Below, piece by piece: positions 1 to 64,000 of a stretch of 64,000 nucleotides of DNA; the first letter of the stretch is position 1, and each line of letters begins with the position of its first letter. The DNA comes from Candidatus Woesebacteria bacterium GW2011_GWB1_39_10 (GTDB taxonomy: Bacteria > Patescibacteriota > Microgenomatia > UBA8517): NCBI GenBank assembly GCA_000993205.1, contig LBVU01000004.1, positions 124,113 to 188,112 of the forward strand, in the 5' to 3' direction. Both the position numbers and the translations under genes were made by a program. The notes under the pieces are model-generated. The model ran no database searches and had not been told where the DNA came from. It saw only the letters and a list, made by a program, of their open reading frames with translations.

Positions 1-579
1 ATAAATAAAGTACGGGCTGTTAACCTTTGTTTCACCCTGAACTATCCTTTTATCAAACCCTTCATATATTATCTCTATTTTTGAATCTGGGATATTATAA
101 TATTTCTTCAAACCTTCCTTAACTGCATATGACGGTACTATTATTCGGAAAGAAGCAAATACAGCTCTTCTGAAAACAAATTTGTATACGGCCTGTTTAA
201 AAAGATAAAGCGGTCCGGGTAATGTTGAGGCGGAAAGACCGGCAAAATCGTGCATCAACATATCGTGAATAGTAACAATAAATTTCCCCCGATAAAAAAT
301 TGGAACATTAAAGTGGGGGAAATGCACAAGATCAGGATTTTCTTTATTAATTAAACCCGGAAGTTTTACTTGTTCGTACAAACTATAATGACGAAAGTCA
401 GCCAAAACTTTTTTCCAATTTTTCGGAAGTTTCAGAGTATCAAAATATTTTTTCCGGAGAAGCAAAATGTAATCATTTTTGACATCAATTTTGGCCAGTT
501 CCGCGATAAGATTGATTTGGTATCTACCCAACCCTGCATTTTCCAAACCGTAAAGCCGGCCGTCAATCAATATTTTCAT
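1..579 (-). CDS. Glycosyltransferase family 4 (GT-B fold), N-terminal part; gene continues beyond the window start
   Basis: Not in the ORF track because it runs off the edge. The reverse complement from the ATG at 579..577 reads MKILIDGRLYGLENAGLGRYQINLIAELAKIDV..., a typical Glyco_transf_4 N-terminal domain. It shares a TAATG stop/start overlap with the upstream gene. The reading frame stays open to position 1. Confidence 0.7.
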   Translation of the reverse strand, partial: MKILIDGRLYGLENAGLGRYQINLIAELAKIDVKNDYILLLRKKYFDTLKLPKNWKKVLADFRHYSLYEQVKLPGLINKENPDLVHFPHFNVPIFYRGKFIVTIHDMLMHDFAGLSASTLPGPLYLFKQAVYKFVFRRAVFASFRIIVPSYAVKEGLKKYYNIPDSKIEIIYEGFDKRIVQGETKVNSPYFIY

Positions 580-1460
580 TAATACGAAGAAAGGAGAACC
601 ACACGAACATAACGGATAATTTTAAAAATGTTAATTCCAAAGAGCACAAAATAATCAAACCAAACCGGATATTTTCCCCACAAATTTTTTTTGAAAAATC
701 TTTCCATCGAGGCAACTCCTGCAAGTCTGATTTTTTTCCTTTGTATGGGAGTAACTTTGAATTTCCATTTCGCAACCTTTCCTTTTGTAACCCCTTTGAG
801 GTGAGTAATATATGCATCAGGATAATAGATCAACTTGTAACCCAATTTGTGGATCTGATAACAAAGATCCACATCCTCCCCATCAAAAAAATACCCTTCA
901 TCAAACCAGCCGACTTTATCCAATATTTTCTTCCAACTTAGGAAAAAGGCTCCCTGAATCGCTTCCACTTCGTGAGTAGACGTATCCGGGATATCTTCGT
1001 AATAATATTCGCGGGTTTTACCTAAAATTAATCTATTAAAAGAAATCCTGGGGACCGGAAATCTACGCCTTACATCTTTATCCATTGAGCCGTCCGGTAG
1101 AACCAATTTACATGTAACAGCACCAACTTTGGGATGCTCTTTTAGATAGCGCACGGTGAGTGCAAAAACATTCTCATGTACCAAAGTGTCGGGATTTAGA
1201 AAAAGTATCATCTCACCCTTAACAAGCGGTCTCGCACGATTGTTGCCTTTCGAAAATCCTTCATTCGGCCCCTCTATTAATTTTACCCAAGGGAACTTTT
1301 TTTTAATCATATCCGGACTTCCGTCGGTTGAAGCATTATCCGAAACAATAACTTCCATGGGAACTTCTTTTGAATGTAATTCAACCGAATTCAAACAATC
1401 CTCAAGAAGTTCTTTTGTATTGTAATTCAAAATTATTACAGAAAGTAACGGTTTGATCAT
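579..1460 (-). CDS. Glycosyltransferase family 2
   Basis: N-terminal LSVIILNYNTKELLEDCLNSV...VIVSDNASTDGS and a DxD-type region (LFLNPDTLV), which is the canonical GT2 signature. Confidence 0.85.
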   Translation of the reverse strand: MIKPLLSVIILNYNTKELLEDCLNSVELHSKEVPMEVIVSDNASTDGSPDMIKKKFPWVKLIEGPNEGFSKGNNRARPLVKGEMILFLNPDTLVHENVFALTVRYLKEHPKVGAVTCKLVLPDGSMDKDVRRRFPVPRISFNRLILGKTREYYYEDIPDTSTHEVEAIQGAFFLSWKKILDKVGWFDEGYFFDGEDVDLCYQIHKLGYKLIYYPDAYITHLKGVTKGKVAKWKFKVTPIQRKKIRLAGVASMERFFKKNLWGKYPVWFDYFVLFGINIFKIIRYVRVVLLSSY

Positions 1461-1463
1461 GGT

Positions 1464-2654
1464 TTATTCTAACAACTCGGAATAGGCTTTGTCGAGCCTT
1501 GAAACAATGGAATGCCAATCAAAATTGGCAGATACAAAAGATTTGCCTTCCGACGCAAGTTTTTCTGCTAATTTTTTATTACTTAAAACGTTTATTGTCA
1601 TCTCTGCCAAATCTTTTATATTTTGTGACACCAGAGCTTGTTTCCCCTGCGTTATTCCCAAACCCGCCACGCCAACTGGTGTTGAAACAACGGGGAGTCC
1701 CGAAGCCATCGCCTCTAAAACTTTAAGCCGTGTTCCACCGGGGCTCATAATCGGGGTAACAAGAACAGACGCTGCTTTATACGCATCTCTGTTATCCTTA
1801 AGTGACTCACTTATTTCTATATCATTATATTTTTTAGAAAATTCAATTATTTTCTCCGGAACATTTCTCCCTGATATCCAAAGTTTGACACCTTTAACCC
1901 TTGCTCTTACTACCGGCCATATCTCTTTAATTAATATGTTTACAGCTTCAACATTTTGCATCCATTTATAGTCACCGTGATACAAAGCCCTTGGGGGAAA
2001 CTTTCTTAAAACCTTTTTCTCCTCAAAATAATCTACGTCGACTCCGTTTGGAATAACCCCTACTTTTATTCCTGGTATTTCATCTTGCATAATTTTTTTG
2101 TCTTCTACCGACACTGCAAAAAGGCGGCTTGCTCTTTTCCAGTAAAACTTTTCCCAAAATTTCAATTTAATTACATCAAATAGATATATTGGTTTAAAGA
2201 AAAATGATACTTCGTTATCCACATAGTGTTGATAAACCGAAAACTCAATAGTGGGTTCAACCAAAACTATCGGGACAGAAGTCTTGGGAATATGTGGCAT
2301 GACATAAAATGTCTCAGCATGAATTACATCGTATTTATTGTTGGTAAGTTCTTTTTTTATTGCACTTCTCTCGTCCAACGACAGATTGCGGATAACCACC
2401 AATGGGTTAAAACTGATGGCTGTCAAAAATAAATTCCTAAAAGTCCAAGGTGACTTTGGTCTTTTAAAAACCATTACTTTTTCACAATATTTTTCTATTT
2501 CCGGCAAATATTCTTTTTCTTTGTTGTCTTTAATTAGGGACATCAAAGTTATGTTGTGTTTTTTGGAGAGGAGTTTAATCAAATGATACCAACGCGTTTG
2601 TCCTCCGGACATTTGATCGATTGGCAGAAATGGAACGAGCATCAATATCTTCAT
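1464..2654 (-). CDS. Glycosyltransferase family 4 (GT1/GT-B)
   Basis: C-terminal SPGGTRLKVLEAMASGLPVVSTPVG E-x7-E-type GT4 motif, 396 aa. Confidence 0.85.
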   Translation of the reverse strand: MKILMLVPFLPIDQMSGGQTRWYHLIKLLSKKHNITLMSLIKDNKEKEYLPEIEKYCEKVMVFKRPKSPWTFRNLFLTAISFNPLVVIRNLSLDERSAIKKELTNNKYDVIHAETFYVMPHIPKTSVPIVLVEPTIEFSVYQHYVDNEVSFFFKPIYLFDVIKLKFWEKFYWKRASRLFAVSVEDKKIMQDEIPGIKVGVIPNGVDVDYFEEKKVLRKFPPRALYHGDYKWMQNVEAVNILIKEIWPVVRARVKGVKLWISGRNVPEKIIEFSKKYNDIEISESLKDNRDAYKAASVLVTPIMSPGGTRLKVLEAMASGLPVVSTPVGVAGLGITQGKQALVSQNIKDLAEMTINVLSNKKLAEKLASEGKSFVSANFDWHSIVSRLDKAYSELLE

Positions 2655-4147
2655 TTGGTTTTTACAGTTTGATGCAAATCGATAATTATATATTTATTGG
2701 TTTTTTCTATTGTCTTAAACCTTGATACCATCATTTTTGTATCGGCGCTTTCTAAATCAACTGAAACATAATAGTCGGCCCCTTTTTCTATCACACGATC
2801 AATGGAATCGTCTATGGCAGGCCAGCCAGAACGTTTCGTTGCATATAAAAATGCTGTATCACCATTGTAAGGGGCTATAACAATCGCGTCTTTGGGAGTA
2901 ATTTTATCTACTTCAGCGCCCGCAGCAAGAATTTCGGGATGATTAATATTGTAATTTCCTGCAATCTGGTTCCATCCTGTAATGAGCATCACCCAAACAG
3001 AACTAACCAATATAATTCTTACCAACCACTTATTAAAAGTTTGTTGACGCCATAAATAGATAGATCCTGCCGCAAGGGTCAAAGCAATAACTGGAATTGA
3101 AGGAATCTGATAATAATCATGCATGACGTTAGCTGATGCCACAGCTACGACATACATAAATATTCCTGCCAAAAACCAATGAATAAATAAGTTTTTGACC
3201 TTAGTGTTAAAAACACCGAAAACAAATGGAATTAGGCCCATTGAACCAAGTATCAGGTGTCCCAGTCTTTCTCCAAAAATCCAATACCAAAAAGATGGTT
3301 TAAACCTGATTCTATCGCCGTTAAAAGCCCAAAGATAGAAAGGAATTCCTTCAGGAAATCTTGATATCCAAGCTCGCCAAAGTATGAACGGCAAAAATGC
3401 CAATACAAAAAAGGTGATTGCCTTAAAAAGAATTTTCCTGTCATTAAATATTTTCTTTAATTCATATTTTTTTAGCGCCAGGTAACATATCGGAACGATG
3501 TAAAAACCCATATAGGGTTTAATTAAAAGCATTGCTGCAAAAAATATTCCGGAAAGATACAAATAAGTATCCCCCTTATCGTCAAAGAATCTGACAAACA
3601 GCCAAAGTGAAATTATCCCAAAAGTTACACCCATAGGGTCGGGTAATATTACACGGGTAAAATAAATGTTATACGGAATGAATAAATAGAAAAATACACT
3701 CAGAATTCCTCCCCATTTACCGATAAATCTTTTACCAATTAAATATAGAAAAAAACCGGATGTAACGGCGGAAATGATCGAAACAAGTCTGGACAAAATT
3801 TCAAGAGAGATGGATTGAAAATTCACTGCAAGCACGGCCCCTATGGCATTATAAAATGGAAACTCAACCATTCTGTATCCGTTTGGATTAAATATACCGG
3901 TTTGAATGCTTGAAATATCGTGAAATTTGGGGTAAATGAGATTAATTCCATTTTCTACATATATTCGTGTAACAGACGCAGTATCCGCCTGTCTCCAGGA
4001 ATGCCAATCAGCTATAGGGCTTTGGATTTTGTAAAGCCTCACAACGAAGCCCATAATTATAATTATTGACAAAATTAAATACTCAAAATATTCTGACTTG
4101 AAAAACAGGGTACTATTCTTGCTCATATTGTTTATTTCTAACCACAT
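2651..4147 (-). CDS. Polytopic GT-C membrane glycosyltransferase, ArnT/PMT_2-like
   Basis: 498 aa, about 11 predicted TM helices. The first extracytoplasmic loop carries HSWRQADTASVTR, which is comparable to the ArnT PDETRYAEISR acidic motif. The protein has a C-terminal soluble tail. Confidence 0.6.
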   Translation of the reverse strand: MWLEINNMSKNSTLFFKSEYFEYLILSIIIIMGFVVRLYKIQSPIADWHSWRQADTASVTRIYVENGINLIYPKFHDISSIQTGIFNPNGYRMVEFPFYNAIGAVLAVNFQSISLEILSRLVSIISAVTSGFFLYLIGKRFIGKWGGILSVFFYLFIPYNIYFTRVILPDPMGVTFGIISLWLFVRFFDDKGDTYLYLSGIFFAAMLLIKPYMGFYIVPICYLALKKYELKKIFNDRKILFKAITFFVLAFLPFILWRAWISRFPEGIPFYLWAFNGDRIRFKPSFWYWIFGERLGHLILGSMGLIPFVFGVFNTKVKNLFIHWFLAGIFMYVVAVASANVMHDYYQIPSIPVIALTLAAGSIYLWRQQTFNKWLVRIILVSSVWVMLITGWNQIAGNYNINHPEILAAGAEVDKITPKDAIVIAPYNGDTAFLYATKRSGWPAIDDSIDRVIEKGADYYVSVDLESADTKMMVSRFKTIEKTNKYIIIDLHQTVKTK

Positions 4148-5486
4148 AAACAGCTAATCCCAACAATAACCAAAAAAGTGTAGCAAATTTTGAAGCTTCA
4201 AACAAATCTATAAAGAAAATGCTCAGGAATGTACCCAAAATTCCTCCAGAAATACCTACCACAAATCCAAGAGAGGGGGGGTCTAATTTGCGAATTGTTG
4301 GAATAGAACTGGTAAATATCTTTCCTATCCTAAGAAAGACAAGCCAAAAAGCTAAAAAGCCAAACAACCCTGTCTCACCCAAAATTCTCAAATAGTCATT
4401 GTCTGTTGCCAAATCAATCGAGGAATAGCCTGTTCCTAAAATTGGATTAATCATAAAACTCCTTATGGCTCTTGGCCATTCCACGTTTAACCGAATAGAT
4501 GTTGATCTATCTTCGATTACCGGAATTGGTAACGGTGTCTTCACTTGTAAATCAACCCTCCGGACAGGAAGGATTGCTTCGTCTGCATATACAGTAATTG
4601 ATGGACTAGCCATTCCAAAAACTTTTATTAGCTGTCTAAATCTTTGATTAACCCCAGATGACATTAGAATCAGAAATACACTGACAGCAAGAACGATTAT
4701 TAACGCTTTAAATTTTTTGACCAATATCAAAGCAAAAGTAACAGCTCCAAGATACGAAATTTGACCTGTCCTTGAAAGAGAATTGATAAGAAGCCAGAGC
4801 CCGGCTCCAGAAGCTATTATAAATAAGATTTTACTAAATTTCTCTCTCAACAAAAAAATTAGGGTAATAAAAATCGGTAAAACCAGAACAATAAATGCCG
4901 CTAAATCATAGTGTCCGGCAAAAGTTGAATTGATATGACTTCCCGGTGTCCAAAAAAGGGCAACGCCCTTGGAATACTCCATATTCTGAGTAATTATTAC
5001 AGGAAAACGAAAATACATTTCCCCAACCCCGTATATAAATACTGCAACAATCACCACAAACAATACTTTTATGTAATAATCCAGATTTTCGGACACCTTT
5101 TCCTTAGACAAAAGTGTTAGTACCGCAAAAAAAGGAACTGCGTATTCAATTCTTCTGGCCCAGTGAAGAAGACCAAGAGTCAATCCCGCTGTCCGTGTAA
5201 GATACACTCCTGCAAAAACAGACAAAAGTCCCACACCGAAAAATATTAAAAAGGCCTGTACAATTTCGTCTTTAAAAAAAGATTTAAAATTGGGTAGAAT
5301 CTTAATAAAGGTAAAGGCAGCCAAAATTAAAAGAAGCAGATCTTCAAAACGTACCGCGACATAAGTTCCGGGAACATTAATAAGCGGAAATTTGGGAAAT
5401 AGCGGAACTATTATTAAAACAGCTGCAATTAAATATTTTGAAACTGTGTTAAATTGAGACAAAAGCTTTGACATAAATTTTGGCAA
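4113..5486 (-). CDS. O-antigen ligase / polymerase family membrane protein (Wzy_C domain)
   Basis: 457 aa multi-TM protein. A large loop carries RLNVEWPRAIRSFMINPILGTGYSS...ATDNDYLRILGETGLFGFLAF, which matches the Wzy_C/WaaL consensus (R..W..A...F..NP..G.G......NxYL..L.E.G..G). Confidence 0.65.
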   Translation of the reverse strand: MPKFMSKLLSQFNTVSKYLIAAVLIIVPLFPKFPLINVPGTYVAVRFEDLLLLILAAFTFIKILPNFKSFFKDEIVQAFLIFFGVGLLSVFAGVYLTRTAGLTLGLLHWARRIEYAVPFFAVLTLLSKEKVSENLDYYIKVLFVVIVAVFIYGVGEMYFRFPVIITQNMEYSKGVALFWTPGSHINSTFAGHYDLAAFIVLVLPIFITLIFLLREKFSKILFIIASGAGLWLLINSLSRTGQISYLGAVTFALILVKKFKALIIVLAVSVFLILMSSGVNQRFRQLIKVFGMASPSITVYADEAILPVRRVDLQVKTPLPIPVIEDRSTSIRLNVEWPRAIRSFMINPILGTGYSSIDLATDNDYLRILGETGLFGFLAFWLVFLRIGKIFTSSIPTIRKLDPPSLGFVVGISGGILGTFLSIFFIDLFEASKFATLFWLLLGLAVYVVRNKQYEQE

Positions 5487-6378
5487 TTTTAGAATCGACT
5501 AAACCATAAAATAAGATCCTAAGAAAGGCCCCAAGTTTAAGAGTAGACGTTAGTACAGGAAGTTGCCAGCGAGAATAATGCTTTTTATAAAAAAGTTTTA
5601 GGTTCTGCATTTCAAAAATTGTAGCCTTTTCGCTTCCGTTAGTCATTTGTCCATAGTGAACTATTCTCCATTCAGGTAAATACCAGGATTCCCAACCGGT
5701 TTTATAAAATCTATATGCCAATTCAACCTCCTCCACATATAAAAAGAAGTCTTCATCAAAAAGCCCTGCGGAATCCATGGCGTTTTTACGCATTAAAAAA
5801 AATGCTCCTGTAACCCAATCCTGCTTCTGGGTTTTTTTGAAATACGCCTCATTTTTATGAAAAGGAGAACCGGGGTGAAGCGGATGGTAAGGCTTCATCA
5901 ACTTATCAACCCCGGGAATGTCATCAATAAAAGTCATCCAGGCAAAAACTCTTGGAAGTGTGGGGAAATATCCGCCGGAGCCCTGAAAGGTTTTTCTATC
6001 GGAATTAAGAAGGGCACAAGAGGAAAGGCCTACTTTGGGATGCGCATCCATCCAGGCAATCATTTCTTTAAATATTTTTCTATCGATTATCAGAGTATCG
6101 GAATTTAAAAGCAAAACATACCGCCCCCGTGCAATCTTCATTCCATAATTGTTGTTTTCTCCAAATCCGTGATTTTCATATTTTTTTATTAAAGTTACTT
6201 GAGGAAACTCTCTTGCAACCATATTGGGAGTGTTGTCGGTAGAGGCGTTATCTACAACAATGACTTCACCGAATATTCCATCGAGTGCCCTGTAAACGGA
6301 TTCAAGACAATCCCTAAGCATGTCCTCAATATTTGTAGATACTATTACGATTGAAATGTCTATATTTTTTCCTGACAT
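5449..6378 (-). CDS. Glycosyltransferase family 2
   Basis: ISIVIVSTNIEDMLRDCLESV...VIVVDNASTDNT, followed by LLLNSDTLI. Confidence 0.85.
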   Translation of the reverse strand: MSGKNIDISIVIVSTNIEDMLRDCLESVYRALDGIFGEVIVVDNASTDNTPNMVAREFPQVTLIKKYENHGFGENNNYGMKIARGRYVLLLNSDTLIIDRKIFKEMIAWMDAHPKVGLSSCALLNSDRKTFQGSGGYFPTLPRVFAWMTFIDDIPGVDKLMKPYHPLHPGSPFHKNEAYFKKTQKQDWVTGAFFLMRKNAMDSAGLFDEDFFLYVEEVELAYRFYKTGWESWYLPEWRIVHYGQMTNGSEKATIFEMQNLKLFYKKHYSRWQLPVLTSTLKLGAFLRILFYGLVDSKIAKIYVKAFVSI

Positions 6379-6386
6379 ATTTGGAA

Positions 6387-6938: not shown

Positions 6939-6948
6939 ACCATTATCA

Positions 6949-6972: not shown

Positions 6973-6977
6973 TATTT

Positions 6978-7877
6978 CTATAACCAATCTGAAACTATCT
7001 GTGCTAATTCCTTTTCTTTTCCGTTGAACCCATGGTCGGCGTCTTTGATAATTTCGTATTTGAATTGAGGCTTTAGATCTTTTAATATATTTACTAACTT
7101 AGGTATTTCACCCCAGGCATATTCGTCGTCTTCTCCGTAAACAACGAGTGAGGATTTATTTATCTCTTTAAAATATCTAAACAAAGGCCTTTCGGATATT
7201 TTCGCCAATCCCAACGCTTGAGAAAAAGGAAAACAATTGTAGTCACCGTCAGGATTTGCGACATCAAAAAACCCTTTATTGGAAAGGATTTCATCAAATT
7301 TAATTAATTCTTCAATAATCTGTTCACCTTCCCCTTTTCGTATTTTTTCTTTGCTTTTATTTAAAAGCTTAAAAAACATTTTATCATCTAAAAGATCGTA
7401 ATAAATACCTGTATCATCACCTCCGCAAATCAGCACATATTTTGAAAATTCGTTTTTGGGTTTGTAATGGTTATAAACGCAGATCTTATTAGCTCCCGTT
7501 GACTTTCCCATCAGATAAAACTCTTTATACCCCAAGCTTTTGACAAAATCTAAAGCTCCGTCAATATCTAATACACATTCTTTTATAATCTCGTAAGCAC
7601 ACCCGTAAGATTTTCTATCTTTTTTTATTTTTTTTAAATTAATGTTCAACTTTTTTATAATATGCGCACCTCTATTGTTAAATTTTAGAAGAGATATCCC
7701 ATTGTTTGTGAGTGCCTCGGGAAGCATTCTATGCTCACTCTCGTCGTAAAAGATTGAGGAACTTCCGTTTCCGTGAATATTAATCGCTATTTTTTCGGAA
7801 TTACTAACTTCATAAAGAAGTCCCGGGAGAACTAAATGGTCCTGAGTTTTTAATTCAATAAATTTAGGTTCATTCAT
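6978..7877 (-). CDS. Alpha/beta-hydrolase fold serine hydrolase (putative esterase)
   Basis: HG oxyanion motif (INIHGNGSS), nucleophile elbow G-K-S-T-G (LMGKSTGANK), and a C-terminal DADHGF placing Asp and His as in an S-D-H triad. 299 aa. Confidence 0.6.
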   Translation of the reverse strand: MNEPKFIELKTQDHLVLPGLLYEVSNSEKIAINIHGNGSSSIFYDESEHRMLPEALTNNGISLLKFNNRGAHIIKKLNINLKKIKKDRKSYGCAYEIIKECVLDIDGALDFVKSLGYKEFYLMGKSTGANKICVYNHYKPKNEFSKYVLICGGDDTGIYYDLLDDKMFFKLLNKSKEKIRKGEGEQIIEELIKFDEILSNKGFFDVANPDGDYNCFPFSQALGLAKISERPLFRYFKEINKSSLVVYGEDDEYAWGEIPKLVNILKDLKPQFKYEIIKDADHGFNGKEKELAQIVSDWL

Positions 7878-23412: not shown

Positions 23413-23426
23413 TTTAACAAATTATA

Positions 23427-25650: not shown

Positions 25651-26019
25651 TTAGGAGCTTATAAACTTAATAATTACTATTACCAAAAAACCATAAATAT
25701 AATTACCGATCAATTCCGATAACGGCAACAGGCCAAGTGAATCAAAAAAATAGGAGATTATAAATAAACCGAAACAAAAATACAAAATCGTTTTCCAACC
25801 AATTTTAAATATCTGGAATAAACTAGTCAAAATTAAAAAAACAACCAATTCCTTCGTAAAAATTAAATTAAAATAAGGTAGCTGCGAAACTAACAGCCAA
25901 AAGGACATCGTAAATATAAAGAGAATTAAGCGAACCCTATTAATGTTTATCCACACAAAAGCTTTACTTAAATAACCATCTAATAAACTATCCAAATAAC
26001 CAGGTTTAATTTTTCTCAT
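25651..26019 (-). CDS. Small hypothetical integral membrane protein (122 aa, 3-4 TM)
   Basis: Hydrophobic segments LILFIFTMSFWLLV, VVFLILTSLFQIF and YFCFGLFIISYFF. 14-bp overlap with the upstream giant gene. Confidence 0.5.
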   Translation of the reverse strand: MRKIKPGYLDSLLDGYLSKAFVWININRVRLILFIFTMSFWLLVSQLPYFNLIFTKELVVFLILTSLFQIFKIGWKTILYFCFGLFIISYFFDSLGLLPLSELIGNYIYGFLVIVIIKFISS

Positions 26020-57131: not shown

Positions 57132-58190
57132 TTAGACCGAGGTTTTCCGATAATTATATTTATTAATCAGTTTAGCTATCTTTTCTACTTCTTTATCCGT
57201 CACAACAGCATCAAGCGGTATGGTTGCAACTCTTGGCCCAACGTATTCTGTAATCGGTAGTTTTTTATTCTTATAACCTTTAAAGGCCGGTTGTTGATGG
57301 AGAGGAGTAAAATTAAAGGAACAGCCAATTCCATTTTCTTTCATGAAATTGAAAAAATCATCTCTATTTTCGACCAAAATTGGGTATAGATGAGTTCCTT
57401 TGTTTTTCAATCCCAAAAGTTTATTATATAAATCCACAACATGGCGCCTTCTCTTTTCAAAACTTGGGAGTCTTTTCAATTGAACTCTGCCAATTGACGA
57501 ATTTAGATCAGTTGTATTAAATTTCCAACCGGAAAATTCAACCGTATAAACCCACTTAGATTGCAGACCATATCTTTTCCAAGCATCGCGTGACAGTCCA
57601 TGGAGTCTGGCCATCCTTAGCCAGTCTGCTACCTTACTATCCGACGTGGTAATCATTCCACCTTCGCCCGTCGTCATATTCTTGGTGGCATAAAAAGAAT
57701 AACAGGAAGCGAAAGCTTTTATATTTTCTCCATCTTTTTCTATTAGATGCGCACTGTCTTCGATTACAGGAATAGATGTTTTGATATGCGCTCTATTCGC
57801 AGCATAATGAACAGGGATAATAGCTTTAGTTTTTTTTGTAATGGCTGCGTCGAGCGACTTCTGGTCCATTGTAAAATCGTCTTCACGGATATCTACAAAA
57901 ACAGGGGTGGCACCACAGTGCACAACCACATTCGCAGTTGCAGCAAAAGTAAAAGAGGGAACAATGACTTCATCGCCATTTTTAATCCCAAGAGCTTTGA
58001 GTGCCAAAAACAACCCTGACGTTGCGCTATTAACCGCTATTGCATGTTTAGCGCCAACATATTTTGCAAATTCTTCCTCAAAAGCTTGCGTTTCGGGACC
58101 CATGGTAAGCCACCCACTTTTTAATACTTTTGTTACTGCTTTTATCTCTTCTTTACCTATACTTGGTCTTTCGAATGGTATTTGTTTCAT
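57132..58190 (-). CDS. DegT/DnrJ/EryC1/StrS-family PLP-dependent sugar aminotransferase (PglE/PseC/ArnB-like)
   Basis: The N-terminus IPFERPSIGKEEIKAVTKVLKSGWLTMGPETQAFEEEFAKYVGAKHAIAVNSATSGL is typical, and the lysine region FYATKNMTTGEGGM is present. Confidence 0.85.
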   Translation of the reverse strand: MKQIPFERPSIGKEEIKAVTKVLKSGWLTMGPETQAFEEEFAKYVGAKHAIAVNSATSGLFLALKALGIKNGDEVIVPSFTFAATANVVVHCGATPVFVDIREDDFTMDQKSLDAAITKKTKAIIPVHYAANRAHIKTSIPVIEDSAHLIEKDGENIKAFASCYSFYATKNMTTGEGGMITTSDSKVADWLRMARLHGLSRDAWKRYGLQSKWVYTVEFSGWKFNTTDLNSSIGRVQLKRLPSFEKRRRHVVDLYNKLLGLKNKGTHLYPILVENRDDFFNFMKENGIGCSFNFTPLHQQPAFKGYKNKKLPITEYVGPRVATIPLDAVVTDKEVEKIAKLINKYNYRKTSV

Positions 58191-58210
58191 ATAGCCATAT
58201 TAAAATAGTA

Positions 58211-59626
58211 TTATCTCACTATATTTATCCCGGGTGCAACACTTCTCAGAATATTGACCACTTCTTTCTTATCGTCCATTTTACGGAGTAGTTTACCTAC
58301 TACATTGACTATATTCACAGCTTCTTTTTTTCCTTTGATTAAAAATATCCGCTCACTAATTGTTTTTTGCTTATCTTCTGTATCATTGATCAGTTTTTCA
58401 TGCAATTTTTCTCCACGCCTAATACCGGAGTACTTTATTTTAATATCAGTTTCTGGGCTCAGACCGGAAAGTTTTATCATAAGCCTGGCCAAGTCGTCAA
58501 TCTTAATCGATTCGCCCATATCAAGCATAAACACTTCTCCCCCATCTTTGATTAAAAAACCTGCATATAAAACCAGCTGAACTGCTTCAGGAATTGTCAT
58601 AAAGTACCTGGTCATTTGTTTGTCTGTCACGATAACCGGACCGCCTTTAGCAATCTGTTTCTTGAACGTAGGGATAACACTTCCTTGGCTTCCTAAGACA
58701 TTTCCAAATCTAACCGAGCAAAATTTTGTCTTCCCTTTCGAATTGTAAAATGTCACTAGTTTCTCTGACAACAATTTAGTTGCGCCCATTATGCTCGACG
58801 GCTCAACTGCTTTATCGGTTGAAATATTAACAAATTTTTTTACTCCGAATTTTATTGCCGACAATATAATATTTTTTGTACCAAACACGTTGTTTTTAAT
58901 TGCTTCTTGCGGAAATTCTTCCATTAAAGGAACGTGCTTATATGCAGCGGCATGAAAAATTATCTCAGGTTTAGTACTATTGAAAATTTCTTCGATTCTT
59001 TTTTTGTCTTGAATATTGGCAACTATGCATTCAAAATCATTTTTGCCTCCGATATCAGATAACTCCAAGCCAAGTTCGTAAAGACCACTCTCCCAAAAAT
59101 CTAAAGCTATCAATTTTTTTGGGTTAAATGACAATATTTGCCTACATATCTCAGAACCAATTGACCCGGCTGCGCCGGTTATTAAAACAGTTTTATTTTT
59201 AAACTCATTCTTAAATAAAGATTGTTCCGATTGAACAATGGCCCTACCAAGTAAATCGCTTATCTCAATTTCCCTGACTTTGGAAAGTTTTACCTTCCCT
59301 TCTACGATTTCTAAAAGTCTGGGAACTATTTTAAAAATGACTTTGTGCTCTTCACAGTTTTTAATAACCTCTCTAATTAAAGAGCCGTTAGCTGATGGTA
59401 TCGCTATAAAAACTTCAGAAATTTTAAATTTTTTGATTAACCTTGAAAGTTCGCTGATTCTACCTATGATTTTAATACCATTTACTTTCTTAAAATTCAA
59501 ATCTTCTTTATCGTCTAGAAAACCTGCAATTTTATACCGATTTCTGAAATGTTTTTGAATTTCCTCCGAAAGTTCTTCGCCGGCAACTCCGGCACCAACA
59601 ATTATTATATTTTCTTTCTTATTCAT
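58211..59626 (-). CDS. UDP-N-acetylglucosamine 4,6-dehydratase, long soluble CapD/PglF/WbpM-like (Polysacc_synt_2 with N-terminal CoA-binding-like domain)
   Basis: IIIVGAGVAGEEL N-terminal domain. The dehydratase domain has VLITGAAGSIGSE, IFHAAAYKHVPLME, ISTDKAVEPSSIMGATK, VRFGNVLGSQGSVIPTF and MTRYFM. 471 aa, with no TM segments. Confidence 0.8.
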   Translation of the reverse strand: MNKKENIIIVGAGVAGEELSEEIQKHFRNRYKIAGFLDDKEDLNFKKVNGIKIIGRISELSRLIKKFKISEVFIAIPSANGSLIREVIKNCEEHKVIFKIVPRLLEIVEGKVKLSKVREIEISDLLGRAIVQSEQSLFKNEFKNKTVLITGAAGSIGSEICRQILSFNPKKLIALDFWESGLYELGLELSDIGGKNDFECIVANIQDKKRIEEIFNSTKPEIIFHAAAYKHVPLMEEFPQEAIKNNVFGTKNIILSAIKFGVKKFVNISTDKAVEPSSIMGATKLLSEKLVTFYNSKGKTKFCSVRFGNVLGSQGSVIPTFKKQIAKGGPVIVTDKQMTRYFMTIPEAVQLVLYAGFLIKDGGEVFMLDMGESIKIDDLARLMIKLSGLSPETDIKIKYSGIRRGEKLHEKLINDTEDKQKTISERIFLIKGKKEAVNIVNVVGKLLRKMDDKKEVVNILRSVAPGINIVR

Positions 59627-62739: not shown

Positions 62740-62876
62740 ATGATCAATTTTTTGAAATTATATAAGCTACGTATGTCGTCGGATAAAGTATCTTTTAGGT
62801 TAGTCTTTCAACAACACCCACAAGCTTCAGGTAGCCAGTTAAGATATTTTTGTACTTAAGGGGGAGTTCTCTCATA

Positions 62877-63644
62877 TCACCGGCGATGGCTTCTCTGTTT
62901 TCGAAGCACAAATAAATAATTGGGAATCATTGGATAAAGTATTCTTAGTGCAAAACCTGGGATTTTGAATACGAAAGAATTTTTTTTGATAAGGTCATCC
63001 ACATAATACCTAAACGGGGACCTGATAACTTTCAATGTGAAATCTTCAACTATAAAATTTCCCATCAATTTTTTAATCCCTATTATTGTCCTTAAACGAG
63101 GCTCGTAATATTCACCAGACTTTGTCCATCGTACATAAAAATCGGCAAGCCAAATGGGAAGCCATGAAACAAATGGAAGATTTGGATAGTGCGCATCTCT
63201 AATAACTAATCTGTTGCCGGCACCCAAAAAACAGATTCCATCCTGTTTTAACACGCGATATATTTCATCCATTAATAATTTTGGGTTTTCTGCGTGTTCA
63301 TATATCTGATTTGCTACAATAATATCAAATGAGTTATCTCCGAAAGGGAAGCTACCATCCGGCTTTAATAATTTGAAACTAAGATTTTTCTTTTTATGTT
63401 TGCTCGCCCTGCGAATAGCGACCCTATCAACATCAACCCCAACGACATATCTAAAATATGGCGATAAATATGATGAAATTATTCCTTCCGCACAACCAAC
63501 ATCAAGAAGTTTCGCTTTTTTTATTTGAGGACCAAAAGCATCTTTTAAAATTCTAATGATCTTTTTAGTTTTCCTGAGTCTGCTCTTTTTCTCGTAAACT
63601 AAATCTGCACCATATACCTGACTGTGAAATTGTTTTGTTATCAT
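62877..63644 (-). CDS. Class I SAM-dependent methyltransferase
   Basis: LLDVGCAEGIISSYL motif I and DIIVANQIYEHA motif II. Confidence 0.85.
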   Translation of the reverse strand: MITKQFHSQVYGADLVYEKKSRLRKTKKIIRILKDAFGPQIKKAKLLDVGCAEGIISSYLSPYFRYVVGVDVDRVAIRRASKHKKKNLSFKLLKPDGSFPFGDNSFDIIVANQIYEHAENPKLLMDEIYRVLKQDGICFLGAGNRLVIRDAHYPNLPFVSWLPIWLADFYVRWTKSGEYYEPRLRTIIGIKKLMGNFIVEDFTLKVIRSPFRYYVDDLIKKNSFVFKIPGFALRILYPMIPNYLFVLRKQRSHRR

Positions 63645-63697
63645 ATAGTTAATTCTAACTCAATCGCTTATTTAATTAAAGGAGTGATCTAAGTTGT

Positions 63698-64000
63698 TTA
63701 GCCGATATTTTGATTTCGCCCCTCGACAACCTTTAAACTCAATTTGCGTGAAATTCTCCATTCAAAATTTTTAACCCATTTTTTTGATGTGTTACATAAA
63801 CGCCGATATCTAGAGTCAGATTTTAATATTTCATTAACTGAATTAAATAATCCCAAGGGGGTATTGTCTCTTACAAAAATTCCGCTTTCACCATGCTTTA
63901 CAGAATCTACCAAGCCTGAAGATTTGTACGCTACAACGGGGGTTCCAACGGCATTGGCTTCAATATTCACAAGGCCCCAACCTTCATGAGCAGATGGATT
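63698..64000 (-). CDS. Glycosyltransferase family 4, C-terminal part; gene continues beyond the window end
   Basis: The reverse complement through the window end reads ...NPSAHEGWGLVNIEANAVGTPVVAYKSSGLVDSV (the GT4 EX7E region). The listed 90-aa ORF is an internal-Met truncation. Confidence 0.7.
   Translation of the reverse strand, partial: NPSAHEGWGLVNIEANAVGTPVVAYKSSGLVDSVKHGESGIFVRDNTPLGLFNSVNEILKSDSRYRRLCNTSKKWVKNFEWRISRKLSLKVVEGRNQNIG

What the first reader, a model, noticed from the sequence alone, without database searches (positions are those of the whole stretch)
1..64000. 64-kb contiguous glycoconjugate-assembly super-locus with about 30 glycosyltransferases and 7 methyltransferases
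The window holds about 58 genes. About 10 are GT4, about 10 are GT2 and about 10 are GT-C-type polytopic membrane proteins. It also carries a Wzx flippase, a Wzy_C-type ligase/polymerase and enzymes for at least five activated sugars (Galf via Glf, L-fucose via Fcl, a 4-amino-4,6-dideoxy-HexNAc via PglF-like plus DegT, a PseB-type 6-deoxy-HexNAc, and an amidated uronic acid via dehydrogenase plus AsnB-like). This is a far larger and more GT-C-rich locus than a typical O-antigen or capsule cluster. It implies an elaborate extracytoplasmic glycan or a heavily glycosylated surface protein layer. If the organism is a CPR-type bacterium, such structures are essentially uncharacterised.
Basis: partly seen in the sequence, partly recalled or inferred. 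Interest (0 to 1): 0.75.

Follow-up and report, generated by a model that had tools for sequence, protein, structure and literature searches.

The report
Giant surface-sugar gene island in CPR bacterium
The whole 64-kb window is one uninterrupted stretch of sugar-polymer-building genes (about 30 glycosyltransferases, ten of them membrane-embedded "GT-C" enzymes) from an ultra-small groundwater Woesebacteria (CPR) bacterium. The island continues to at least 79 kb, roughly 7% of a genome the size of its closest complete relative, so this cell invests heavily in an uncharacterised surface glycan.

Summary
Pfam/NCBIfam scans give 54 complete and 2 edge-cut genes with no housekeeping gene among them.

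- **Glycosyltransferases:** 10 GT4 (8 full, 2 cut by the window ends), 10 GT2 (9 above cut-off, 1 weak) and 10 GT-C.
- **Other genes:** 6 firm and 1 weak methyltransferase, one Wzx flippase, one Wzy_C protein, 2 acetyltransferases and about 11 sugar-nucleotide enzymes.
- **The four GT-C candidates Pfam did not assign:** fold search, profile comparison or homologue annotation places all four in GT-C. The refutation test "they are transporters" therefore fails.
- **Assembly:** the same gene order occurs at 99.7-100% identity in at least four independent groundwater assemblies, so it is not chimeric.
- **Organism:** closest relatives are Candidatus Woesebacteria (CPR), one with a complete 1.08-Mb chromosome.
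- **Extent:** the island runs past both window ends to at least 79 kb. The extensions add a PglC-like initiating transferase, a second flippase and an eleventh GT-C, giving about 35 glycosyltransferases.

Most likely mechanism: a lipid-linked glycan is assembled in the cytoplasm, flipped by Wzx and handled by the Wzy_C protein. It is then heavily elaborated outside the membrane by GT-C enzymes using polyprenyl-phosphate sugars made by ArnC/PgfS-like GT2s.

Specific sugar identities (Galf, fucose) are only family-level guesses. I rate it a new variant of a known kind, of moderate to high interest.

The parts
1..579 (-). GT4 glycosyltransferase, N-terminal part (gene continues left of the window; 378 aa in full)
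   Evidence: Translation. The full gene in L008/L009 carries Glyco_transf_4 and Glycos_transf_1.
579..1460 (-). GT2 glycosyltransferase, 293 aa, one C-terminal TM helix
   Evidence: PF00535 63 bits, PF13641 66 bits; TM helix
1464..2654 (-). GT4, 396 aa
   Evidence: PF13692 73.6 bits, PF00534 44.5 bits
2651..4147 (-). GT-C (PMT_2/ArnT-like), 498 aa, polytopic
   Evidence: PF13231 63 bits against a cut-off of 26; TM profile
4113..5486 (-). Wzy_C-domain polytopic protein (polymerase, ligase or O-oligosaccharyltransferase class)
   Evidence: PF04932 45.2 bits against 31.7; no sequence hit in the PDB
5449..6378 (-). GT2, 309 aa
   Evidence: PF00535 75 bits
6387..6938 (-). 183-aa membrane protein, no family assigned
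   Evidence: No Pfam hit at E<=1; TM segments
6978..7877 (-). DUF1749 protein (alpha/beta-hydrolase-like by my own knowledge of that family)
   Evidence: PF08538 32 bits
7878..8474 (-). Hexapeptide acetyltransferase, WcaF-family-like
   Evidence: PF00132 59 bits; NF007797 101 bits, below cut-off
8493..9620 (-). GT4, 375 aa
   Evidence: PF00534 135.6 bits
9617..10714 (-). GT4, 365 aa
   Evidence: PF00534 92 bits
10698..11999 (-). GT-C (PMT_2), 433 aa, with a W-L-D-E motif after TM1
   Evidence: PF13231 40.5 bits; motif
11996..12832 (-). GT2, 278 aa, C-terminal TM helix
   Evidence: PF00535 126.5 bits
12891..13544 (+). SAM methyltransferase, 217 aa
   Evidence: PF13489 62.8 bits
13531..14697 (-). 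GT2 with an N-terminal methyltransferase remnant, 388 aa
   Evidence: PF00535 64.8 bits; PF13489 partial at 21.5 bits
14698..15645 (-). SDR sugar-nucleotide epimerase/dehydratase, GalE/TviC-like
   Evidence: PF01370 211 bits; galE 180 bits, below cut-off
15608..16534 (-). GT4, 308 aa
   Evidence: PF00534 98 bits
16531..17922 (-). GT-C (PMT_2), 463 aa
   Evidence: PF13231 40.5 bits
17919..18701 (-). SAM methyltransferase with a C-terminal TM helix
   Evidence: PF13489 87 bits; TM helix
18637..19467 (-). GT2, 276 aa
   Evidence: PF00535 43 bits
19457..20803 (-). Wzx-type MOP flippase
   Evidence: PF01943 61.9 bits, PF13440 48.5 bits
20727..23255 (-). GT-C (AftD/OST-like fold) with a C-terminal CBM6/35-like domain, 842 aa
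   Evidence: PTPS_related is only weak, 18 bits. The AF2 model has pLDDT 91.9. Foldseek top hits are AftD at 6.5e-9, then AglB, STT3, PglB and ArnT. D36 after TM1 is invariant.
23427..24230 (-). GT2-like soluble protein resembling Dol-P-Man synthase, 267 aa
   Evidence: PF00535 20.9 bits, below the 23.3 cut-off. The only PDB hit is 5mlz, a Dol-P-Man synthase, at E 4e-7.
24223..25446 (-). UDP-galactopyranose-mutase-like flavoenzyme, closest to eukaryote-type UGMs
   Evidence: The 18 best PDB sequence hits are UGMs, best E 2.6e-23. TIGR00031 scores only 47.8 bits against a cut-off of 304.
25651..26019 (-). 122-aa protein with four predicted TM helices; candidate lipid-sugar flippase (inference only)
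   Evidence: ORF; TM profile; no Pfam hit; conserved next to the AftD-like gene in L011 at 44% identity
26006..29497 (-). AftD-like GT-C, 1163 aa
   Evidence: PF11847 27.1 bits against 26. The C-terminus matches the AftD structures 6w98/6wbx at E 6e-4. W-D-D motif after TM1.
29494..30162 (-). SAM methyltransferase, 222 aa
   Evidence: PF13489 71.9 bits
30134..31246 (+). SDR epimerase/dehydratase, 370 aa
   Evidence: PF01370 136 bits
31254..32567 (-). NDP-sugar 6-dehydrogenase, closest to UDP-ManNAc dehydrogenases
   Evidence: TIGR03026 302.6 bits, passing the 189.8 cut-off
32579..33820 (+). GT4, 413 aa
   Evidence: PF00534 84.6 bits
33835..35808 (-). GT-C-fold protein from a family Pfam does not model, 657 aa
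   Evidence: No Pfam hit at E<=1. Twelve homologue clusters, the distant ones carrying C-terminal F5/8 type C domains. W38, D40 and D41 are invariant. hhalign to the 823-aa family gives 98.3%, E 1.3e-14.
36079..36981 (+). SDR reductase/epimerase, 300 aa
   Evidence: PF01370 73 bits
37004..39475 (-). GT-C-fold protein with a C-terminal CBM-like beta-sandwich, 823 aa, from a family Pfam does not model
39472..41160 (-). GT-C, GT39/PMT_2-like, 562 aa from the ATG at 41160 (the longest ORF reaches 41235)
   Evidence: No Pfam hit itself. Of 259 homologues, many carry PF13231 and some are named 'glycosyltransferase family 39 protein' by NCBI. Gene start as called.
41157..41882 (-). SAM methyltransferase with a C-terminal TM helix
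   Evidence: PF08241 47.9 bits
41893..42840 (-). SAM methyltransferase, 315 aa
   Evidence: PF13649 28.5 bits, PF08241 27.8 bits
42843..43976 (-). GT4, 377 aa
   Evidence: PF13692 59.9 bits
43979..45826 (-). AsnB-type glutamine amidotransferase, closest to EPS-associated amidotransferases
   Evidence: PF00733 286.8 bits; TIGR03108 530 bits, below cut-off, and TIGR01536 456 bits, passing
45826..46644 (-). GT2, 272 aa, C-terminal TM helix
   Evidence: PF00535 110 bits
46669..47223 (-). Hexapeptide O-acetyltransferase, EpsC/CysE/WcaB-like
   Evidence: PF00132 28.3 bits; NF041874 104 bits, below cut-off
47290..48240 (+). Polyprenyl-phosphate sugar synthase-type GT2 (PgfS/ArnC/GtrB-like) with two C-terminal TM helices
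   Evidence: PF00535 93.6 bits; PgfS 246 bits full length and ArnC 110 bits, both below cut-off; TM helices
48254..48907 (+). Probable methyltransferase (weak)
   Evidence: PF00398 22 bits against 24; PDB KsgA-type methyltransferases at E 1.5e-5 over the SAM motif only
48882..49841 (+). Fcl-like NDP-4-keto-6-deoxyhexose 3,5-epimerase/4-reductase
   Evidence: NF047922 293.5 bits full length, below the 500 cut-off
49789..50856 (-). GT4, about 352 aa
   Evidence: PF00534 66 bits
50834..51721 (-). SDR reductase/epimerase, about 291 aa
   Evidence: PF01370 162 bits
51712..52710 (-). PseB/FnlA-type UDP-HexNAc 4,6-dehydratase
   Evidence: PF02719 327 bits; PseB 364.5 bits against a cut-off of 407.75, FnlA 290 bits
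52694..53575 (-). GT2, 276-293 aa, C-terminal TM helix
   Evidence: PF00535 83 bits
53579..54079 (+). DUF5667 membrane-anchored protein
   Evidence: PF18915 35 bits
54079..55023 (+). Polyprenyl-phosphate sugar synthase-type GT2 (ArnC/PgfS/AglJ-like) with two C-terminal TM helices
   Evidence: PF00535 117.8 bits; ArnC 178 bits full length, PgfS 138 bits, AglJ 99.5 bits; TM helices
55020..57131 (-). GT-C (PMT_2), 703 aa; paralogue of 60760-62739
   Evidence: PF13231 29.7 bits; 39% identity to the 659-aa GT-C, E 2e-153
57132..58190 (-). DegT/ArnB/PseC-type sugar aminotransferase
   Evidence: PF01041 321 bits; ArnB 288 bits and PseC 268 bits, both below cut-off
58211..59626 (-). PglF/CapD-like UDP-HexNAc 4,6-dehydratase with no TM helices
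   Evidence: PF02719 376 bits, PF13727 53 bits; no TM helices
59623..60759 (-). GT4, 378 aa
   Evidence: PF00534 109 bits
60760..62739 (-). GT-C (PMT_2 and PMT), 659 aa, W-D-D motif after TM1
   Evidence: PF13231 44.6 bits, PF02366 33.9 bits; motif
62877..63644 (-). SAM methyltransferase, 255 aa
   Evidence: PF08241 75.6 bits
63698..64000 (-). GT4, C-terminal part (379 aa in full; the gene starts right of the window)
   Evidence: Translation; full gene in L005 with Glycos_transf_1

Best explanation
The window is the core of an envelope-glycan biosynthesis island of at least 79 kb in a Candidatus Woesebacteria (CPR/Patescibacteria) bacterium. It most likely works in two stages.

**Stage 1, cytoplasmic face.** A small PglC-type phosphoglycosyl transferase, just left of the window, primes a polyprenyl phosphate. 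Soluble or peripheral GT4 and GT2 enzymes then extend a lipid-linked oligosaccharide. Their nucleotide sugars come from the island's own tailoring enzymes: PglF-like and PseB/FnlA-like 4,6-dehydratases, a DegT aminotransferase, several SDR epimerases/reductases, a nucleotide-sugar dehydrogenase, an AsnB-like amidotransferase and acetyltransferases. A Wzx-type flippase exports the product, and the Wzy_C protein polymerises it or transfers it to its final acceptor.

**Stage 2, outer face.** ArnC/PgfS/GtrB-like GT2 enzymes make polyprenyl-phosphate monosaccharides. Ten GT-C enzymes in the window (eleven in the island) use these to branch or extend the glycan outside the membrane. Several GT-Cs carry carbohydrate-binding-module-like domains that would hold a polysaccharide acceptor. 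Six to seven methyltransferases and two acetyltransferases add non-sugar decorations.

**Shown:** the gene families, the GT-C folds, the gene order, its conservation and the taxon.
**Inferred:** donor and acceptor identities, the order of steps, and whether the island makes one product or several.
For: **Gene content.** Family assignments cover all 56 genes, and none is a housekeeping gene.

**GT-C status.** All ten large membrane proteins are GT-C. Six pass a Pfam cut-off. One is placed by homologue annotation, two by predicted fold and one by profile-profile homology. Eight show an acidic W-x-D-[DE]-type motif directly after TM1 and a ninth a looser R-Q-A-D; none was seen in 16531-17922.

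**Donor supply.**
- Two GT2s match ArnC/PgfS/AglJ over their full length and have the two C-terminal TM helices of GtrB-type synthases.
- In 7 of 17 homologues of the 823-aa GT-C, a GT2 domain is fused to its N-terminus. The three scanned (P0013, P0006, P0010) best match PpgS, AglJ, ArnC and PgfS, all polyprenyl-phosphate sugar synthases. This is Rosetta-stone evidence for synthase and GT-C working together.

**Acceptor.** CBM-like C-terminal domains occur on the 823-aa and 842-aa GT-Cs, F5/8 type C domains on homologues of the 657-aa GT-C, and an AftD-like C-terminus on the 1163-aa GT-C. CBMs on GT-Cs bind polysaccharide acceptors in Emb, AftD and GT136 (PMC11127046).

**Pathway completeness.** The initiator (Bac_transf, 203 aa), ManC, a second flippase and another GT-C lie just outside the window.

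**Reality of the locus.** Independent assemblies give identical order. Modules are conserved but shuffled in Woesebacteria and other Patescibacteria genomes and in groundwater metagenome contigs.

**Background.** The CPR genome described in PMC5220378 lacks lipid A genes, and that paper says the envelope of CPR bacteria is unresolved.
Against: - No enzyme was assayed, and no sugar-nucleotide enzyme reaches an NCBIfam equivalog cut-off.
- No Wzz/PCP chain-length regulator and no GtrA-family flippase turned up in the Pfam scans. The only flippase candidate for lipid-phosphate sugars is an unassigned 122-aa four-TM protein.
- Only two or three clear lipid-phosphate-sugar synthases would have to serve ten GT-Cs.
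- Two flippases, divergent sub-operons and module-wise presence or absence in relatives suggest more than one product.
- The Wzy_C domain cannot distinguish polymerase, ligase and protein O-oligosaccharyltransferase.
- PMT-type GT-Cs can glycosylate proteins.
Confidence: 0.7

Rival explanations
1. The island is mainly a protein-glycosylation machine. The lipid-linked glycan is transferred en bloc to S-layer, pilin or other surface proteins by the Wzy_C protein acting as an O-oligosaccharyltransferase (PglL/WsaB-like). The PMT_2/GT39-type GT-Cs O-glycosylate Ser/Thr residues directly, as do actinobacterial Pmt and streptococcal PgfM1/M2.
For: - Six GT-Cs hit PMT_2, and one also hits PMT.
- One GT2 matches PgfS best, the lipid-sugar synthase of the streptococcal Pgf protein-glycosylation system. 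The other also hits AglJ, which acts in archaeal S-layer N-glycosylation.
- Wzy_C domains occur in O-oligosaccharyltransferases (my own knowledge).
- CPR cells depend on pili and surface proteins, and their glycosylation is unexplored (PMC11623550; PMC8080830).
Against: - No MIR domain, TPR domain or other protein-acceptor-binding domain was found on any GT-C.
- Four GT-Cs carry, or are related to proteins carrying, carbohydrate-binding modules instead.
- No candidate acceptor protein (S-layer protein or pilin) is encoded in the 79 kb examined.
- PMT_2 is a broad family that also includes lipid- and glycan-modifying enzymes such as ArnT.
Confidence: 0.2
2. The 'super-locus' is not one pathway. 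It is a co-located set of several independent glycan systems, for example a Wzx/Wzy heteropolysaccharide, a second flippase-dependent glycan and separate three-component decoration modules. Recombination and module swapping keep them together in a variable genomic island.
For: - There are two MOP flippases, one in the window and one 5-6 kb to its right.
- Nine genes sit in divergent + strand blocks.
- Relatives keep modules but delete, duplicate or reorder them. The 823-aa and 657-aa GT-Cs are absent from L012-L014, the AsnB block is absent from L020/L029, and L028 has tandem copies of the 823-aa family.
- Strain-level SNPs and a nonsense allele are concentrated in one GT-C.
Against: - Only one initiating phosphoglycosyl transferase and one Wzy_C protein were seen in 79 kb.
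- Genes overlap or abut almost everywhere (98% coding), consistent with long co-transcribed units.
- This reading overlaps the best explanation rather than excluding it.
Confidence: 0.4
3. The finding is an artefact, either a chimeric metagenome assembly or a misreading of transporters as glycosyltransferases.
For: - The sequence comes from metagenome assemblies.
- Four of the large membrane proteins have no significant Pfam hit.
Against: - The gene order is the same at 99.7-100% identity in assemblies ERZ978281, ERZ27254728, ERZ28564302/4 and Logan SRR29904084.
- GC content (0.31-0.40) and GC skew are uniform.
- Synteny is conserved in a complete Woesebacteria chromosome.
- All four unassigned proteins resolve to GT-C.
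Confidence: 0.02

Closest known systems
Mycobacterial arabinogalactan/LAM biosynthesis (AftA-D, EmbA/B/C, Glf, GlfT, PpgS with Rv3779)
   Same: - Many GT-C enzymes act outside the membrane on a growing cell-wall polysaccharide, using polyprenyl-phosphate sugar donors.
- GT-Cs carry CBM domains.
- Two proteins here are AftD-like.
- A UGM-like gene sits beside them.
- GT2 domains fused to GT-C homologues match PpgS best.
- Methylated sugars are implied by the methyltransferases.
   Different: - No DPA pathway genes (UbiA-type DPPRS, DprE1/E2) were detected in the window.
- Identity to AftD is marginal (27 bits; Foldseek E 6.5e-9).
- The organism is a roughly 1-Mb CPR bacterium rather than an actinobacterium.
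- Wzx/Wzy_C components are present here but are not part of arabinogalactan synthesis.
Three-component extracytoplasmic glycosylation systems (GtrA/GtrB/GtrC; Arn pathway ArnB/ArnC/ArnT; GT136 pentofuranose systems, PMC11127046; CsbB/YfhO)
   Same: - GtrB/ArnC-type GT2s with two C-terminal TM helices lie next to GT-C genes. 54079-55023 abuts 55020-57131, with DegT (best NCBIfam hit ArnB) and a dehydratase beside them.
- The GT-C plus CBM architecture matches GT136 ORF12.
   Different: - Known systems add a single side-chain sugar with one GT-C. Here ten or eleven GT-Cs are clustered.
- No GtrA, SMR or MATE flippase family hit was found.
- Two of the GT-C families (823 aa and 657 aa) match no Pfam model.
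Wzx/Wzy-dependent O-antigen, capsule or S-layer-glycan (slg) gene clusters
   Same: The island has a PglC-like initiator (outside the window), GT4/GT2 Leloir transferases, a MOP flippase, a Wzy_C protein and nucleotide-sugar tailoring genes of PglF/DegT and PseB/FnlA type.
   Different: - The size is at least 79 kb with about 35 glycosyltransferases, against typically 10-30 kb with 3-8 (my own knowledge).
- No Wzz/PCP was found.
- CPR genomes described so far lack lipid A genes, so the product is not a classical O antigen (PMC5220378).
- The GT-C density is far higher.
Streptococcus mutans Pgf protein O-glycosylation (PgfS, PgfM1, PgfE, PgfM2)
   Same: 47290-48240 matches PgfS best, at 246 bits over its full length. 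GT-C partners and an epimerase-type SDR lie nearby.
   Different: The score is below the equivalog cut-off of 500. No adhesin-type acceptor is evident. The scale is ten times larger.

Membership tests
GT-C glycosyltransferase superfamily (applied to the ten large membrane proteins) | 7-13 transmembrane helices with the catalytic extracytoplasmic loop after TM1 (definition as in PMC11127046) | tested here: met
   A Kyte-Doolittle scan shows roughly 8-13 hydrophobic helices in the N-terminal ~450 residues of all ten. The AF2 models of the 823-aa and 842-aa proteins show the helical bundle.
GT-C glycosyltransferase superfamily | Conserved acidic residue(s) in the first extracytoplasmic loop | tested here: met
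   D113/D114 are invariant in the 823-aa family, D40/D41 in the 657-aa family and D36 in the 842-aa family. W-x-D-[DE]-like motifs follow TM1 in eight of ten, with a looser R-Q-A-D in 2651-4147; none was seen in 16531-17922. No catalytic role was tested.
GT-C glycosyltransferase superfamily | Sequence or fold similarity to established GT-C enzymes | tested here: met
GT-C glycosyltransferase superfamily | Use of a lipid-phosphate-linked sugar donor | not testable with these tools
   Only indirect support: adjacent ArnC/PgfS-like GT2s and GT2-GT-C fusions in homologues.
Wzx/Wzy-dependent polysaccharide pathway | Initiating polyprenyl-phosphate phosphoglycosyl transferase | tested here: met
   There is none in the window. 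A 203-aa Bac_transf (PF02397) gene lies about 3 kb left of window position 1 on the same contigs.
Wzx/Wzy-dependent polysaccharide pathway | MOP-family flippase | tested here: met
   PF01943 61.9 bits for 19457-20803; a second copy lies right of the window.
Wzx/Wzy-dependent polysaccharide pathway | Wzy polymerase | tested here: inconclusive
   The Wzy_C domain is present (45.2 bits). The domain is shared with WaaL ligases and O-oligosaccharyltransferases, and no PDB relative was found by sequence.
Wzx/Wzy-dependent polysaccharide pathway | Chain-length regulator (Wzz/PCP) | tested here: not met
   No Wzz/PCP family appears in any Pfam scan of the window or in the pre-computed Pfam lists for the flanks. 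A DUF4012 protein of unknown role ends the island.
Three-component (GtrABC/Arn-like) extracytoplasmic glycosylation | GtrB/ArnC-type GT2 with a C-terminal TM anchor that makes polyprenyl-phosphate sugar | tested here: met
   47290-48240 and 54079-55023 match PgfS and ArnC over their full length, below the equivalog cut-offs. Each has two C-terminal TM helices.
Three-component (GtrABC/Arn-like) extracytoplasmic glycosylation | Dedicated small flippase (GtrA, SMR or MATE) | tested here: inconclusive
   No family hit. A 122-aa four-TM protein (25651-26019) has the right size and position but no detectable homology.
UDP-galactopyranose mutase (Glf) | Match to the family model at its trusted cut-off | tested here: not met
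   TIGR00031 scores 47.8 bits against 303.75, and there is no PF03275 hit. The 18 best PDB sequence hits are nevertheless UGMs, E 2.6e-23, over residues 10-227 (up to 330 for 4dsg). It therefore resembles a UGM, but membership is unproven.
GDP-L-fucose pathway (Gmd plus Fcl) | Both GDP-mannose 4,6-dehydratase and GDP-fucose synthase are present | tested here: not met
   The Fcl-like protein scores 293.5 bits against 500. No protein in the window matches Gmd above 61 bits, against a cut-off of 415. ManC lies outside the window.
Protein O-mannosyltransferase (GT39/PMT) | PMT catalytic domain plus a lumenal MIR domain | tested here: not met
   PF02366 scores 33.9 bits in 60760-62739 only. No MIR domain hit was found in any protein.
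Mycobacterial AftD arabinofuranosyltransferase | GT-C_AftD domain plus C-terminal CBM-rich region, with a DPA donor pathway | tested here: inconclusive
   PF11847 scores 27.1 bits against 26, and the C-terminus hits 6w98/6wbx at E 6e-4. No DPPRS or DprE1/E2 was detected in the window.

The most novel reading that the evidence does not exclude
This CPR lineage builds a mycobacterium-style cell-wall heteropolysaccharide that is largely polymerised and branched outside the membrane by about eleven GT-C enzymes. These would include GT-C families Pfam does not model and natural synthase-GT-C fusion enzymes.

The island would also contain a hexofuranose 'three-component' module with no characterised precedent. 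In it, the UGM-like enzyme makes UDP-Galf, and the Dol-P-Man-synthase-like GT2 (23427-24230) makes polyprenyl-P-Galf. The 122-aa four-TM protein flips it, and the two AftD-like GT-Cs (26006-29497 and 20727-23255) add the furanose outside the membrane.
Probability: 0.2. Interest if true: 0.8.

Novelty: new variant of a known kind. Interest (0 to 1): 0.58.

Why it matters
The envelope of CPR/Patescibacteria is essentially uncharacterised. PMC5220378 states that its structure and formation remain unclear for all CPR studied. These cells live attached to hosts, so the surface is where their biology happens.

- **Scale.** A genome of about 1 Mb, judged from the closest complete relative, spends roughly 7% of its length on one glycan island. 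The island holds about 35 glycosyltransferases, more than the 20 reported for an entire Parcubacterium genome. That points to a large, elaborate glycan as a central feature of the cell.
- **Testable parts.** The island supplies ten or eleven GT-C enzymes, two from families absent from Pfam, natural synthase-GT-C fusions, and membrane-anchored methyltransferases. All can be expressed and assayed.
- **Evolution.** The island's mosaic variation between strains and relatives suggests surface-antigen diversification, possibly driven by phage or host interaction.

Tried and rejected
- **Genome scan with the 823-aa family.** Searching GTDB species representatives with its alignment found nothing. A second scan with the AsnB-like protein gave the taxon.
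- **Extending the right flank.** An exact-DNA search of JGI metagenomes found nothing, so the right boundary of the island is still unknown.
- **Relating the 842-aa family to the 823-aa family.** hhalign gave 1.4% probability. They are separate GT-C lineages.
- **Sequence-only PDB searches.** The 823-aa family profile and the Wzy_C protein gave nothing useful.
- **AFDB50 fold search.** The library was unavailable.
- **DGR check.** A bAvd-like gene lies next to the island, but no repeat of 40 nt or more occurs within 10 kb.
- **RNA and repeats.** No tRNA, no Rfam family and only two trivial 7-nt tandem repeats are present.
- **Literature.** Searches for CPR/Woesebacteria GT-C-rich loci found no paper describing such a locus.
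- **Readings rejected.**
  - A lipopolysaccharide O antigen is unlikely, because the CPR genome described in PMC5220378 lacks lipid A genes.
  - A recent tandem amplification is unlikely. Only one GT-C pair (55020-57131 and 60760-62739) shows clear full-length similarity, at 39% identity; two other pairs give only short weak local matches.
  - A mobile element is unlikely, given uniform composition, no integrase or tRNA, and conserved synteny.

Full report
**1. What is in the window**

ORF listing and six-frame reading of the ends give 54 complete genes and two genes cut by the window edges. Coding density is about 98%. Forty-five genes lie on the - strand and nine on the + strand.

GC content is 0.31-0.40 throughout, and GC skew is negative in 30 of the 32 two-kb windows, being zero or near zero in the two that hold + strand genes. 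There are no tRNAs, no Rfam matches and no meaningful tandem repeats.

I scanned every protein against Pfam, and the sugar-tailoring and ambiguous ones against NCBIfam as well. No gene has a housekeeping assignment. Every gene is either glycan-related or unassigned.

**2. Checking the counts**

- **GT4:** eight complete genes plus the two edge fragments. On longer contigs the fragments are complete GT4 genes of 378 and 379 aa.
- **GT2:** nine pass the PF00535 gathering score. One (23427-24230) is below it at 20.9 bits against 23.3. Its only PDB sequence relative is the Pyrococcus Dol-P-Man synthase, E 4e-7.
- **Methyltransferases:** six are firm and one is weak (48254-48907). A methyltransferase remnant is fused to the GT2 at 13531-14697.
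- **Wzx and Wzy_C:** both pass their Pfam cut-offs.

**3. Are the large membrane proteins really GT-C?**

Six proteins pass PMT_2, PMT or GT-C_AftD. Four did not, and I resolved each as follows.

(a) 39472-41160 has 259 homologues. Many carry PF13231, and NCBI names some of them GT39.

(b) 37004-39475 (823 aa) has no Pfam hit even at E<=1, and the word-indexed search of 5.8 billion proteins found only 17 homologue clusters.
- Its alignment shows invariant D113-D114 in the loop after an early TM helix.
- The AlphaFold model has pLDDT 79.6 and pTM 0.62.

(c) 33835-35808 (657 aa) also has no Pfam hit and has 12 homologue clusters. The distant ones end in F5/8 type C domains. It has invariant W38, D40 and D41. 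It aligns to the 823-aa family over 535 columns at 98.3% hhalign probability.

(d) 20727-23255 (842 aa) has only a weak PTPS_related hit.
- An exhaustive HMMER search found 1,492 relatives.
- A 53-sequence alignment gave a model with pLDDT 91.9 and pTM 0.89.
- The best Foldseek hits are AftD (E 6.5e-9), AglB, STT3, PglB, ArnT and ALG9, with CBM6/35-like matches for the C-terminus.

Eight of the ten show a W-x-D-[DE]-type motif just after TM1, 2651-4147 has a looser R-Q-A-D, and none was seen in 16531-17922. The "transporters" alternative is rejected.

**4. Is it a real, single piece of DNA, and whose is it?**

Exact-protein look-ups place the genes on contigs from several groundwater assemblies. 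These are ENA ERZ978281 (run SRR1658344, PRJNA268031), ERZ27254728, ERZ28564302/4 and Logan SRR29904083/4, including contigs of 0.2-1 Mb.

The overlapping parts are 99.7-100% identical and co-linear with the window. Chimerism is therefore excluded.

Against GTDB species representatives, the AsnB-like protein is:
- 87% identical to a MAG labelled 'uncultured Gammaproteobacteria' (a label I take to be an error, given the company it keeps);
- 84% identical to Candidatus Woesebacteria CP066686.1, a complete 1,078,985-bp chromosome;
- 76% identical to a Patescibacteria MAG;
- 73% identical to another Woesebacteria MAG.

Neighbouring proteins reach 93-96% identity. Woesebacteria belong to the Microgenomates group of Patescibacteria.

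**5. The locus is bigger than the window**

To the left, continuing on the - strand, come the rest of the GT4, another GT4, a ManC-type nucleotidyltransferase and a 203-aa Bac_transf phosphoglycosyl transferase. That transferase is the initiator missing from the window. A DUF4012 protein follows, and RecO with an ABC transporter mark the end about 5.4 kb out.

To the right come the rest of the GT4, a bAvd-like gene, a 626-aa unknown, a GT2, a second Polysacc_synt flippase and an SDR. A Mannosyl_trans2 GT-C, a GT4, a short-chain dehydrogenase and another GT2 follow. The run is still glycan genes 9.6 kb out, where the fetched DNA ends.

The island is therefore at least 79 kb with about 69 genes: 12 GT4, 12 GT2, 11 GT-C and one initiating transferase. 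If the genome is about the size of its closest complete relative, that is roughly 7% of the chromosome. This scaling is an inference.

**6. Conservation**

The block from about 29.5 to 55 kb is syntenic in L012-L014 and in GCA_040960375.1. It is also syntenic in JGI and Hainich groundwater metagenome contigs. It behaves as a mosaic:
- the 823-aa and 657-aa GT-Cs are absent from the closest genomes;
- the AsnB block is absent from some contigs;
- L028 has two tandem 823-family genes plus a 657-family gene.

Seven of the 17 homologues of the 823-aa GT-C are about 1,050 aa long and carry an N-terminal GT2 domain. For the three scanned (P0013, P0006, P0010), the best NCBIfam matches are PpgS, AglJ, ArnC, PgfS and a Dol-P-hexose transferase. 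All of these are polyprenyl-phosphate sugar synthases. The fusion is direct genomic evidence that this GT-C family consumes a lipid-phosphate sugar made by such a GT2.

**7. Mechanism**

The component list fits a two-stage assembly.

Stage 1 is a classical lipid-linked pathway: a PglC-like initiator, Leloir GT4/GT2 enzymes, a Wzx flippase and a Wzy_C protein.

Stage 2 is extracytoplasmic elaboration of the GtrABC/Arn/mycobacterial type.
- Two GT2s (47290-48240 and 54079-55023) match PgfS and ArnC over their full length. Both have the two C-terminal TM helices of GtrB-type enzymes.
- 54079-55023 abuts a GT-C (55020-57131). Next come a DegT aminotransferase whose best NCBIfam hit is ArnB, a PglF-like dehydratase, a GT4 and a paralogous GT-C at 39% identity.

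CBM-type domains on GT-Cs bind polysaccharide acceptors in Emb, AftD and GT136 enzymes (PMC11127046). Their presence here favours a polysaccharide acceptor.

A second coherent run reads, in order of transcription:
- a methyltransferase;
- the AftD-like GT-C (1163 aa);
- a 122-aa four-TM protein;
- the UGM-like flavoenzyme;
- the Dol-P-Man-synthase-like GT2;
- the AftD/OST-like GT-C (842 aa);
- Wzx.

This looks like a furanose-adding three-component module, but that reading is inference only. The UGM-like and GT2 pair is missing from the same position in L011.

**8. What is not supported**

No sugar-nucleotide enzyme reaches an equivalog cut-off.
- "Galf via Glf" rests on a protein that fails the UGM model, although its nearest solved relatives are eukaryote-type UGMs.
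- "L-fucose via Fcl" lacks a Gmd in the window.
- The dehydrogenase passes only the generic NDP-sugar dehydrogenase model, and it lies about 11 kb from the AsnB-like gene.

Five or more tailoring routes are plausible at family level, but the named sugars are guesses. No Wzz/PCP and no recognisable GtrA, SMR or MATE flippase was found.

**9. Comparison and novelty**

The closest functional analogues are mycobacterial arabinogalactan/LAM synthesis and the three-component decoration systems. The closest formal class is a Wzx/Wzy-type polysaccharide cluster.

None of these matches in scale or GT-C density. Two of the GT-C families are not modelled in Pfam and appear rare.

Full-text searches found no description of such loci in CPR. 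Published CPR genome papers mention "several" or "20" glycosyltransferases per genome and call the envelope unresolved.

I classify the finding as a new variant of a known kind. It is interesting for CPR cell biology and for GT-C enzymology, but it is not a new principle.

**10. Verdict**

Interest is 0.58.

Noticed in passing
window 37218-37377 (within gene 37004-39475): Differences between independent assemblies cluster here. Six of the nine differences seen across 21.8 kb in L001 fall in this 160-nt stretch, which encodes the CBM-like C-terminal domain of the 823-aa GT-C. One of them, G37377T, creates a stop codon and a 699-aa allele in two assemblies (L001 and L003). This could be strain-level diversification or loss of acceptor binding.
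   Followed up: partly
homologues P0004, P0006, P0007, P0010, P0013-P0015; loci L011 10001-13153, L022, L024, L028: These are natural fusions of a polyprenyl-phosphate-sugar-synthase-type GT2 domain to the N-terminus of the 823-aa-family GT-C. They would be single-polypeptide donor-maker plus donor-user enzymes.
   Followed up: partly
window 20727-30162: The run reads methyltransferase, AftD-like GT-C, 122-aa four-TM protein, UGM-like enzyme, Dol-P-Man-synthase-like GT2, then AftD/OST-like GT-C. It looks like a hexofuranose version of the three-component systems described for pentofuranoses (PMC11127046). The UGM-like and GT2 pair is absent at the same position in L011.
   Followed up: partly
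window 24223-25446: The UGM-like flavoenzyme is much closer to eukaryote-type UDP-galactopyranose mutases (Aspergillus, Trypanosoma; E about 1e-23) than to bacterial Glf structures (E about 1e-7).
   Followed up: no
L005 8350-8724 (about 1 kb right of window position 64000): A 124-aa bAvd / 23S_rRNA_IVP four-helix-bundle gene is embedded in the glycan island next to a 626-aa unknown protein. No template/variable repeat pair of 40 nt or more lies within 10 kb, so there is no sign of a diversity-generating retroelement.
   Followed up: yes
window 17919-18701, 41157-41882, 41893-42840: Three SAM methyltransferases each carry a predicted C-terminal transmembrane helix. This suggests methylation at the membrane, on lipid-linked intermediates.
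   Followed up: no
window 55020-57131 and 60760-62739: Only one GT-C pair shows clear full-length similarity (39% identity, E 2e-153; two other pairs give only short weak local matches). The two genes bracket the PglF-like, DegT and GT4 genes. The other GT-Cs are too diverged for BLAST, so the GT-C richness is not a recent amplification.
   Followed up: yes
window 47908-47934 (gene 47290-48240): A second small SNP cluster (three differences in 27 nt between assemblies) lies in the PgfS-like GT2.
   Followed up: no
L006, L010 (same locus in other assemblies): Several island genes are split into two ORFs in some assemblies: the GT4 of 333 aa, the 626-aa unknown and DUF4012. This may reflect population-level pseudogenisation or assembly errors.
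   Followed up: no
L012 (CAZBTH010000005.1): The closest GTDB representative (87% AsnB-like identity, with a syntenic locus) is labelled 'uncultured Gammaproteobacteria bacterium'. This is almost certainly a taxonomic mislabel of a Woesebacteria MAG.
   Followed up: no
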